This document shows, one piece after another, positions 1 through 2,144 of a stretch of 64,000 nucleotides of DNA. Source of the stretch: Saccostrea echinata. Its lineage: Eukaryota. Each line of letters starts with the position of its first letter. Within the stretch, counting starts at the first letter, position 1. The position numbers and the translations under genes are program-made. The notes under the pieces were generated by a model. That model was not told the DNA's origin, searched no databases, and saw only the letters and a program-made list of their open reading frames with translations. The stretch spans positions 43,896,001-43,960,000 of the forward strand of contig NW_026889758.1 of NCBI RefSeq assembly GCF_033153115.1, in the 5' to 3' direction.

Positions 1-2144
1 TCACATTTGGTGCTGTGCCATGCCCTGGAAGTGACAGGTGAAAGACCTGCCATGGAAGAGCCTGGGTTAGTGTCTTCGTGGGCGAAGACCTTTAAGTCGG
101 ACGGATTCGGTCGCCGGTGCCCAGAGAGCACTTGATTGGAGATTCAGGGGGTATGTGCAAGATTATAGGCATAATGGATCACATGACCATTGGCAAAAAG
201 AAAAATTGTATGATATGCTGTAGAAAGAAAGATAACTCAACTGCTAATGAAAAATATTGACGAGGAAACTTTCATTTAGATAGTGATCTGCATCCTCACA
301 ACGTCAGGGGTCCAAAGTCCACTTGTGGCCGTTGGACCCCACATTCATTATCGAAATAAACTGATATATTTCGCTTATTGAACTATGGAGGGACTTCAGT
401 GCCACAGTTCTCTTTTGATATTTTTATTCGTTTTCGTAGTTCTTTTCTTATATCATTATTTTTATTTATTTAAATTTTTAAATCTGATTTTTCCAATTTT
501 ATTATTTTTTTTATTTCTTATTTAGTTCTAACTTCCTGTTTCAATATTTTTATTTCATTTTGATTCTAACATCCTGTTTTAATTTTCGAATTTTATCTTC
601 ATTTCTTTTATTTTGACAAAGTTTCTTAGTATGCACCCGTAATCGAAGATTCGGGGGCATATAGTTTATGCCCTGTCCGTCCGTCTGTCTAGCTGTCTGT
701 TTGTCCGCAAAAACATTAACATTGCCCATAACTTTTGGTTGGTCGGAGCTATGGCTTTCATATTTCACATGTGTATTCCTTCTTTGGGTACCATCATATT
801 TGACCTTTTGACCTTTGATCCAGTTTTGCAAAATTTCACCCAATTTTAACCTTGGTCACAACGTGCTAGGGCTTTTATACTTCATATATGTAATTCTTGT
901 AACAAGAAGTTACTTTGGATACCAACAATTTTGACCCTTTGACCTTGGAGTTTGACCTTCTTTTGAAAAAGTTTAACCTTGGTCACAACGTGCTAGGGCT
1001 TTTATACTTCATATATGTAATTCTTGTAACAAGAAGTTACTTTGGATACCAACAATTTTGACCCTTTGACCTTGGAGTTTGACCTTCTTTTGAAAAAGTT
1101 TAACCTTGGCCATAACTTTTGAACAGTTGGTGCTAAGGCTTTCATACTTCACATGTGTATTTCTTGAGACAAGACCTTCCTTTAGATTCAAACAATTATG
1201 GCTCATTGACATTGAAATTGGGAGTTTGACCTACTTTTGGAAAACTTTTACCTTGGCCATTACTTTTGAACAGTTGGTGCCAGGGCATTATACTTCATAT
1301 ATGTAATCCATGTGACAAGAAGTTACTTTGGATACCAACAACTTTGACCCTTTAACCTTGGAGTTTTACCTACTTTTGAAAAAGTTTAACCTTGGCCATA
1401 ACTTTTGAACAGTTGGCGCTAGGTCTCTCATACTTCACATGTGTATTTCTTGAGACAAGACCTTCCTTTAGATACAAACAATTATGGCCCATTGACATTG
1501 AAATTGGGAGTTTTGTTACATTAAAAGTTTAGACTTTATCAAGTTAAACTTATCTATAACAGTCTGGTTATATCGCATGAAATTTCACTTATGAAATTTA
1601 ATGAAATTTTTACTTTTGTTTTAAATCATATTTCACTTCATTTTAAATATGCAAATTTAATTACATTTTATTTTAAGTGTTCAAATTAATTCAATTTCAA
1701 ATAATCAATTTAATATGTTTTGAATGATCACTCTCTTAGATTTGAGTATAAATTTACATAGAAATATATGCGTTATTTAGCAAATTCAGTTTCATTTACA
1801 TCGGCAATTCTTTTGATTTTGGCATGTTTTGTACTCAATTGCCATGTCACTGGACATCTAACAGCTGTTTTAACCTTTAGGTAAATAAGAAAATTCTTTC
1901 CAATTTCGGCCTCTTTTGAAATAAATTCTTTCGAAGATTGAGTTGACACATCGGAACTTTTTATAGATAAAATTATTTACTTTCACCATCGGTCAGCTTA
2001 ATCCTTTCTTTGTTAATAACTCTTTTCTCGGAAACTAGGTAATTGACTTTAACACTTTTCGCTGTTTTGTTAACATAAGTAATTAGTGTCAACTCATCTA
2101 AGAAATTCTGCAAAAAAAAATTAGCTTAAGGACATCGAAATCAA

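What the first reader, a model, noticed from the sequence alone, without database searches (positions are those of the whole stretch)
1514..1565. Terminal 52-bp hairpin present as flip and flop isomers in the two LTRs
Seen: 1514-1565 is the exact reverse complement of 12107-12158, while the remaining 1512 bp are direct and apparently identical. The segment is itself an imperfect hairpin (tgtta/taaca, aagttta/taaactt, actt-gata-aagt), so both orientations present TGTTA. The inversion includes the 4 nt (agac) that directly follow the PPT G-run and lie outside the hairpin arms. A simple post-insertion loop inversion could not supply these. Established: flip/flop isomers of imperfect terminal hairpins are the signature of hairpin resolution in parvoviruses and poxviruses, not of standard LTR replication. 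Inference: the left cDNA end passes through a covalently closed or folded intermediate (3'-OH joined at taaca^gg, then nicked or extended), giving a CA-3' end for integrase. Because U3 is inherited from the 3' LTR, the asymmetry could be programmed and recur in every insertion.
Basis: partly seen in the sequence, partly recalled or inferred. Interest (0 to 1): 0.88.

Follow-up and report, generated by a model that had tools for sequence, protein, structure and literature searches.

The report
Flipped integrase cap on retrotransposon ends
Three related families of retrovirus-like jumping genes in this animal genome begin almost every inserted copy with a back-to-front 52-55-base piece of their own terminal repeat, likely because the integrase cuts that piece off, uses it as the left attachment end, and DNA repair glues it back reversed, sometimes onto shortened, foreign or no element DNA.

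Summary
Observation confirmed: 1514-1565 is the exact reverse complement of 12107-12158; the other 1513 bp are identical. It is no one-off. The element is a gag-pol-env Ty3/gypsy copy with a 4-bp target duplication. All 64 family matches to this 'cap' end were inspected: 57 face non-LTR flanks as TGTTAC, 7 sit uncut inside elements, none is a canonical left end. Two more families (RT 89% and 62% identical; one cap unrelated in sequence) do the same; 11 other relatives have ordinary ends. The cap's outer end is precise; its inner end is joined loosely to the LTR remainder, truncated cDNA, a non-autonomous element, or a second cap (44 mini-insertions, 26 with exact 4-bp duplication, 41 distinct joints). 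One canonical left end was found. So the asymmetry is programmed, but parvovirus-style hairpin resolution fits poorly. Best model (inferred): integrase cuts an inward-facing att at U3+52, transfers the cap, and end-joining reattaches it inverted. Not found in 10 literature searches; the scan's notes held no earlier report of it.

The parts
1510..1513 (+). left copy of the 4-bp target site duplication (GTTT), inside a host ~160-bp tandem repeat
1514..1565 (-). flipped cap: inverted copy of the first 52 nt of U3; its CA end abuts host DNA, its AGAC end is joined to LTR position +53
1566..3078 (+). body of the 5' LTR, identical to 12159-13671; ends TGTGAAA
3079..3092 (+). 2-nt spacer (AG) and PBS-like TGG stretch; primer tRNA not identified
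3077..4585 (+). gag frame (Retrotrans_gag, E 1.6e-8), ends TAG in frame with pol (readthrough inferred)
4586..8764 (+). pol frame, 1392 aa: protease, RT, RNase H, integrase, weak C-terminal chromodomain match (E 0.006, below cut-off)
8979..11534 (+). env-like frame, 851 aa; no Pfam hit itself, relatives carry PF12259 and come from bivalves where named
12095..12106 (+). polypurine tract with G-run
12107..12158 (+). cap in genomic orientation: 4-nt spacer AGAC (12107-12110), mostly unused canonical att (from 12111), imperfect hairpin, inward-facing att ending GTAACA at 12158
12159..13671 (+). body of the 3' LTR; right att ends TGTGAAA in 14 of 14 right ends printed
13672..13675 (+). right copy of the target site duplication (GTTT)

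Best explanation
This lineage of env-bearing Ty3/gypsy elements puts an inverted copy of the first 52-55 bases of U3 (the cap) at the left end of nearly every insertion, likely because integrase cuts the plus strand at an inward-facing att site at the end of the cap and end-joining then reattaches the cap in reverse. Steps: (1) plus-strand synthesis starts at the PPT and gives 5'-AGAC...GTAACA^GG (shown: every PPT-side copy reads so). (2) Integrase would nick at CA^GG, 52 nt inside the left end, instead of trimming the canonical end, and at AAA^AG on the right (shown: these are the two ends that abut host DNA with a 4-bp duplication; enzyme inferred). In families 1 and 2 the folded cap would look like a ready-processed end, with a 4-nt 5' overhang and a recessed CA (inferred). 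(3) Both transferred 3' ends are plus-strand ends, so after strand transfer and gap filling the cap hangs on the left host arm with its AGAC end free, and the rest of the cDNA on the right arm (inferred from geometry). (4) End-joining closes this break. The usual partner is the LTR remainder starting at the cut; otherwise whatever end is there: a shortened cDNA, an uncut LTR, a non-autonomous element's cDNA, a second cap, or host DNA (joints shown; pathway inferred). RNA takes U3 from the unflipped 3' LTR, so the flip is made anew each cycle.
For: Family 1: 57 of 64 cap ends face non-LTR flanks as TGTTAC, 7 uncut internal, 0 canonical. Family 2: 136 ends, family D: 191 ends, controls 1 and 0, same pattern in those examined. 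18 of 18 long elements with both ends held have an exact 4-bp duplication at the cap. 44 double-cap minis: 26 exact, 10 one-mismatch, 8 no duplication, control rate 0.022; 41 distinct joints. Cap plus LTR tail within 1.6 kb: 16 exact, 6 one-mismatch, 3 none of 25. In 13 of 17 cap-LTR joints the partner starts at the cut (or the A before it), even when the cap is trimmed; 7 of 17 are fully exact. Truncated or foreign partners: 35 listed, 30 sense and 5 antisense, overlap mostly 0-4 nt. 7 of 30 loci of a non-autonomous family carry a cap, while its other copies have canonical ends. About 24 lone caps have no partner and no nearby duplication, as one-ended events healed to host DNA would give. 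Cap-cap joints in runs X3 and X11.
Against: No intermediate was seen; all chemistry is inferred from end products. One family-2 insertion uses the canonical left end (L123/L124, CATA on both sides), so integrase can process it. C38 of family D starts at the cut position behind unrelated DNA with no cap found in the 3 kb upstream. No element ends at the 3' LTR's own inward att behind an intact PPT, so what limits cutting to end-near caps is unexplained. Multi-piece insertions with an uncut cap joined to a cut LTR (C5) suggest some joining before integration. The hairpin is weak in family D (z -1.1, 45 of 300 shuffles as good). 36 of 136 family-2 and most of 191 family-D ends were not examined. 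The flip at a 5' LTR is shown in one genome only. Lone caps could be decayed two-ended insertions.
Confidence: 0.6

Rival explanations
1. The cap is added inside the particle by reverse transcriptase: a run-off or stalled strand jumps end-to-end onto a short anti-cap DNA and copies it, and integrase then handles a finished linear cDNA.
For: Many full-length caps are joined bluntly (overlap 0-1 nt) at scattered internal positions; co-packaged non-autonomous cDNA ends are capped, one with its 2-nt unprocessed tail and one with 9 nt of PBS; C5 shows joining without a cut.
Against: Still needs a cut or stop exactly at CA^G to make the 52-nt template; does not explain lone caps without a second end, trimmed caps with up to 10-nt overlap, or deletions on both arms of double caps.
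Confidence: 0.22
2. One reading: the left cDNA end is covalently closed (minus-strand 3' end joined to the plus-strand 5' AGAC), then nicked at CA^GG, as in hairpin resolution.
For: Gives the window's exact joint and, from a fully extended end, the flipped-cap plus uncut-LTR form (L149, L115); C5 has a cap between two inverted LTR copies; caps of families 1 and 2 fold (z -1.9, -3.1). As a cis pathway it differs from the best model only in the order of joining and cutting.
Against: 10 of 17 cap-LTR joints are imprecise; foreign and antisense partners and double caps need a second molecule; no resolvase or HUH domain in the ORFs; isomers are not mixed at one end.
Confidence: 0.13
3. The double caps are a separate miniature DNA transposon (Ginger-like MITE) whose ends got attached to LTR elements.
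For: Double caps are short inverted-repeat insertions with TGT ends, 4-bp duplications and AT-rich targets, like Ginger (PMC2836005, passages).
Against: 41 distinct joints among 44 events, so no amplified master; each cap sequence matches its own family's U3 start and usually stops at the PPT cut.
Confidence: 0.03
4. One-off inversion after insertion (quasi-palindrome template switch) or assembly error.
For: One joint of 17 (L168) equals a clean inversion between the hairpin arms.
Against: Recurs in three families, always at the left end, never behind the PPT; target duplications sit at the flipped end; seen in other runs.
Confidence: 0.01

Closest known systems
Env-carrying Ty3/gypsy errantiviruses of molluscs with F-type env and chromodomain (Chary and Hayashi, PMC13524379)
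   Same: gag-pol-env, LTRs, PBS-like site, F-type env relatives, weak chromodomain; bivalve F-type members are listed in its supplement.
   Different: That study called LTRs as direct BLAST repeats (section 15); 'inverted' and 'target site duplication' occur 0 times in its main text. No cap or flipped end is described.
Canonical retroviral/Metaviridae integration (short inverted repeats TGTTRNR...YNYAACA, PMC3601003)
   Same: CA-3' end joined to host DNA, short target duplication, att-like TGTTA/TAACA motif.
   Different: The left att is 52 nt inside U3 and faces inward; the two LTRs differ at insertion; the right end is AA in families 1 and 2.
Parvovirus and poxvirus flip/flop hairpin termini (recalled, no call)
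   Same: Imperfect hairpin found as two reverse-complement isomers.
   Different: Isomers are fixed by position, joints are loose and promiscuous, and no resolving enzyme is encoded.
Capture of retrotransposon cDNA at double-strand breaks by end-joining (yeast Ty1; PMC11372161, passages)
   Same: cDNA fragments joined by NHEJ with microhomology.
   Different: Here the break would be made by the element's own integration step and is part of its normal cycle.
Ginger DNA transposons (PMC2836005)
   Same: TGT ends, 40-270-bp inverted repeats, 4-bp duplications, Gypsy-like integrase; AT-rich targets as in Ginger2.
   Different: Double caps encode nothing and arise singly; no integrase gene between two caps was found.
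Mu-type DDE nicking of an end embedded in duplex DNA; L1 twin-priming 5' inversions (both recalled, no call)
   Same: Nick on one strand with the other still attached; a routinely inverted 5' piece.
   Different: Fixed 52-55-nt piece from plus-strand DNA, inserted by an LTR integrase.

Membership tests
Ty3/gypsy (Metaviridae) | pol order protease-RT-RNase H-integrase with gag upstream | tested here: met
Ty3/gypsy (Metaviridae) | 4-6-bp target site duplication | tested here: met
   4 bp; 18 of 18 long elements
Ty3/gypsy (Metaviridae) | two direct LTRs identical over their whole length at insertion | tested here: not met
   1513 bp identical, first 52 bp inverted; this is the variant feature
Ty3/gypsy (Metaviridae) | TG...CA termini | tested here: not met
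   left TG, right AA in families 1 and 2; CA in family D
Ty3/gypsy (Metaviridae) | PPT before the 3' LTR and tRNA PBS after the 5' LTR | tested here: inconclusive
   PPT clear; TGG site seen, primer tRNA not matched
Errantivirus-like, F-type env | third ORF of the baculovirus F class | tested here: inconclusive
   no Pfam hit for the window protein; close relatives carry PF12259; no fold run
Parvovirus/poxvirus flip-flop termini | both isomers occur at the same end | tested here: not met
Parvovirus/poxvirus flip-flop termini | precise resolution joint | tested here: not met
   7 of 17 exact
Parvovirus/poxvirus flip-flop termini | covalently closed end | not testable with these tools
   needs cDNA intermediates
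Ginger/MITE | terminal inverted repeats with 4-bp duplication | tested here: met
   double caps, 26 of 44 exact
Ginger/MITE | amplification from a master copy | tested here: not met
   41 distinct joints of 44
DIRS (inverted terminal repeats) | tyrosine recombinase instead of DDE integrase, no duplication | tested here: not met
   rve integrase and 4-bp duplication

The most novel reading that the evidence does not exclude
An LTR retroelement lineage has moved its left attachment site onto a detachable 52-55-nt plus-strand DNA adaptor. Integrase excises it and loads it into the intasome, alone, in pairs or with any other end, and repair fastens it to whatever DNA is present. This lets incomplete and foreign cDNAs integrate, litters the genome with inverted-repeat minis, and offers a direct route from LTR elements to inverted-repeat (Ginger-like) DNA transposons.
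Probability: 0.5. Interest if true: 0.94.

Novelty: new variant of a known kind. Interest (0 to 1): 0.89.

Why it matters
It breaks two working rules of LTR retroelements: that both att sites lie at the cDNA termini and that the two LTRs are identical direct repeats at insertion. If the model holds, a retroviral-type integrase routinely cuts an internal site and leaves a chromosome break that repair must close, which explains LINE-like 5' truncation in an LTR element, capture of other cDNAs and many tiny palindromic insertions. It gives a short, defined substrate for testing what integrases recognise as an end, bears on the open question of how inverted-repeat Ginger transposons could arise from LTR elements (PMC2836005), and warns that LTR finders and LTR-divergence dating will misplace these ends.

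Tried and rejected
Rfam: 0 matches in 1400-13800. Read laying had contigs only, so no start, strand or raw-read support for the window's joint; uncovered parts say nothing. The automatic classifier mis-filed 5 cross-family or spurious ends, dropped before the counts; several decayed double caps stayed under 'own_trunc'. Three 'no duplication' rows are false pairings on inspection and are left in the count. Integrase tree does not resolve one origin (2 changes; 18% of bootstrap trees give 1); RT tree gives one side of a branch at 84/86, unstarred. No LTR pair resolved for C54:5908525, C76:891636, C33:27459404. No structure or complex prediction was run; it would not decide the question.

Full report
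1. Observation. Window 1514-1565 is the exact reverse complement of 12107-12158, with no extension either way, and 1566-3078 equals 12159-13671 over 1513 bases. The element has gag, pol (protease, RT, RNase H, integrase) and an 851-aa third frame. Named relatives of that frame are bivalve proteins, several relatives carrying PF12259 (67 hits); I infer a bivalve-type host. GTTT flanks both ends. The LTR's right end reads TGTGAAA in all 14 right ends printed from 17 loci. The 52-mer folds modestly (z about -2).

2. Family 1. A 21-base pattern for the cap's CA end gave 64 matches in the genome, control 1. All 64 were fetched and read. Seven lie uncut inside elements: five behind the PPT, two in an internal duplication at C42. 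The other 57 present TGTTAC to a non-LTR flank. None is a canonical left end. Copies keeping the LTR start (C9, C40, C85, C42, diverged C33) all start with the flipped cap; four joints are exact, one cap is 7 nt short. Others join the cap to gag (C2), the PPT (C12), LTR positions 1658, 2389, 13231, 13485, or only the last 17-25 bases of the LTR (L050, L064, L074), or to a second cap.

3. Other families. Family 2 (C63 type; RT 89%, integrase 88% identical) has a 53-nt cap with a different inner sequence: 136 ends, control 1; loci for the 100 listed were fetched and classed, 36 unseen. Family D (RT 62%, integrase 52%) has a 55-nt cap of unrelated sequence: 191 ends, control 0, 35 examined. Both show flipped left ends, truncated capped copies and double caps. 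Of 19 further elements fetched by integrase similarity, 11 have canonical left ends behind a short PPT spacer, 4 are flipped (C6, C17, C25, C7), 1 has no cap in reach (C38) and 3 were unresolved. No PPT followed by a flipped cap exists (0 matches); 17 PPT-plus-normal-cap sites of families 1 and 2 and close variants do. On the RT tree the flipped families lie on one side of a branch (84/86); the integrase tree does not resolve it. Four of 8 canonical relatives folded start U3 with a hairpin bounded by att-like arms (TATCA...TGATA; one very weak; no shuffle control), a likely origin of the inward-facing att. A metagenome contig (L239) keeps the cap behind its PPT.

4. The two ends of the cap behave differently. 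Outer end: exact 4-bp duplication in 18 of 18 long elements, in 26 of 44 double caps (10 more with one mismatch, 8 none; control 0.022) and 16 of 25 cap-plus-LTR-tail insertions (6 one mismatch, 3 none). Inner end: often complete to the PPT cut (41 of 94 single caps full length, 19 more within 4 nt) but joined loosely. Of 17 cap-LTR joints 7 are exact and 13 have the partner starting at the cut or the A before it. The 44 double caps are 57-114 bp with 41 distinct joints. Of 35 truncated or foreign partners 30 run sense and 5 antisense. A ~2.3-kb non-autonomous family with canonical left ends carries caps at 7 of 30 loci, at either end. Two family-2 insertions have a flipped cap in front of an uncut LTR (L149, L115). 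About 24 lone caps have no identified partner and no duplication nearby (32 unassigned, less 4 short right ends, 1 interrupted cap, 1 decayed double cap and 2 with the duplication at the inner end).

5. Against. L123/L124 is one insertion whose other end is family 2's canonical left att, with CATA on both sides. C38 lacks a cap. C5 holds an uncut cap joined to a cut LTR in inverted arrangement. Family D's cap hairpin is weak (z -1.1) against -1.9 and -3.1 for families 1 and 2.

6. Independent data. Twenty runs hold part of the LTR. Four were laid, all as contigs: flipped-cap-to-normal-cap joints appear in X11 (1534>12124, 1552>12111, 1558>12107; organism B) and X3 (1562>12112; organism A), two studies. 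They show that double caps exist outside this assembly, not that the window's own joint is read-supported.

7. Mechanism. Shown: which ends touch host DNA, the duplication, the variety of joints. Inferred: integrase nicks the plus strand at the inward att (CA^G) and at the right end; both are transferred; gap filling copies the cap to its 5' end; end-joining closes the remaining break, so the cap reads inverted. The precise +1 partner would come from minus-strand run-off at the nick or from cutting opposite it. Caps must also act in trans. Rivals are an RT jump inside the particle (0.22) and covalent hairpin closure (0.13). That the flip is programmed I put at 0.95.

8. Literature. Ten full-text searches listed no description of a routinely inverted LTR start; two returned no paper. 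Seen: PMC13524379 passages, section 15 and a supplement search; PMC12440569 abstract and section 14 (Troyka has other non-canonical ends, CG...CG, 3-bp duplications); passages of PMC3601003, PMC11372161, PMC10886601, PMC2836005. The rest were seen as listings only. Repbase entries and most subscription journals are not in the library and could note such ends. Parvovirus, poxvirus, Mu and L1 comparisons are recalled. The scan's notes had no matching finding by words, sequence or place.

9. Verdict. Real, programmed, shared by three families in this genome; a known kind of element with an apparently undescribed way of forming its left end. Interest 0.89.

Noticed in passing
window 4583-4591: gag ends in TAG followed in frame by GGA CTC and pol, suggesting stop-codon readthrough.
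   Followed up: no
window 3072-3078 and 13665-13671: Right LTR end is TGTGAAA, not CA, in families 1 and 2; the non-autonomous family ends GTGTTA; several canonical relatives end GATA, GAAA or TAATA.
   Followed up: partly
window 2208-2288 and 2922-3003: An 82-bp direct repeat inside each LTR ending in a pyrimidine tract and CAG, the first followed by GTAAG: looks like splice sites within the LTR; families 2 and D have a similar inner repeat.
   Followed up: no
L213/L214, L225/L226, L232/L233: A ~2.3-kb non-autonomous LTR family (LTR ~525 bp, 43 LTR starts, 4-bp duplications, no tRNA gene by ARAGORN), likely mobilised by these elements.
   Followed up: partly
L105, L125, L155, L163, L170, L176, L185: One capped, truncated family-2 insertion recurs at 7 places with the same flank, so it rides inside another repeat.
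   Followed up: no
L260-L262 (G000:C1:19.57-19.60 Mb): A canonical relative in a head-to-tail array sharing LTRs, 99.98% identical units.
   Followed up: no
L087 (G000:C33 ~4.1117 Mb): A tRNA-Thr-headed, SINE-like repeat inserted inside a flipped cap.
   Followed up: partly
L073, L076, L080, L226, L207, L208: Further cap variants with the same outer end but different inner sequence, pointing to more capped subfamilies.
   Followed up: partly
cap flanks, 176 ends: Target preference is AT-rich, with A/T at the two central duplicated bases, similar to the RTATAY reported for Ginger2.
   Followed up: partly
window 18426-21887, 28039-29444, 40352-41128: Host tandem repeats: ~160-bp units in two blocks and a ~51-bp array.
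   Followed up: no
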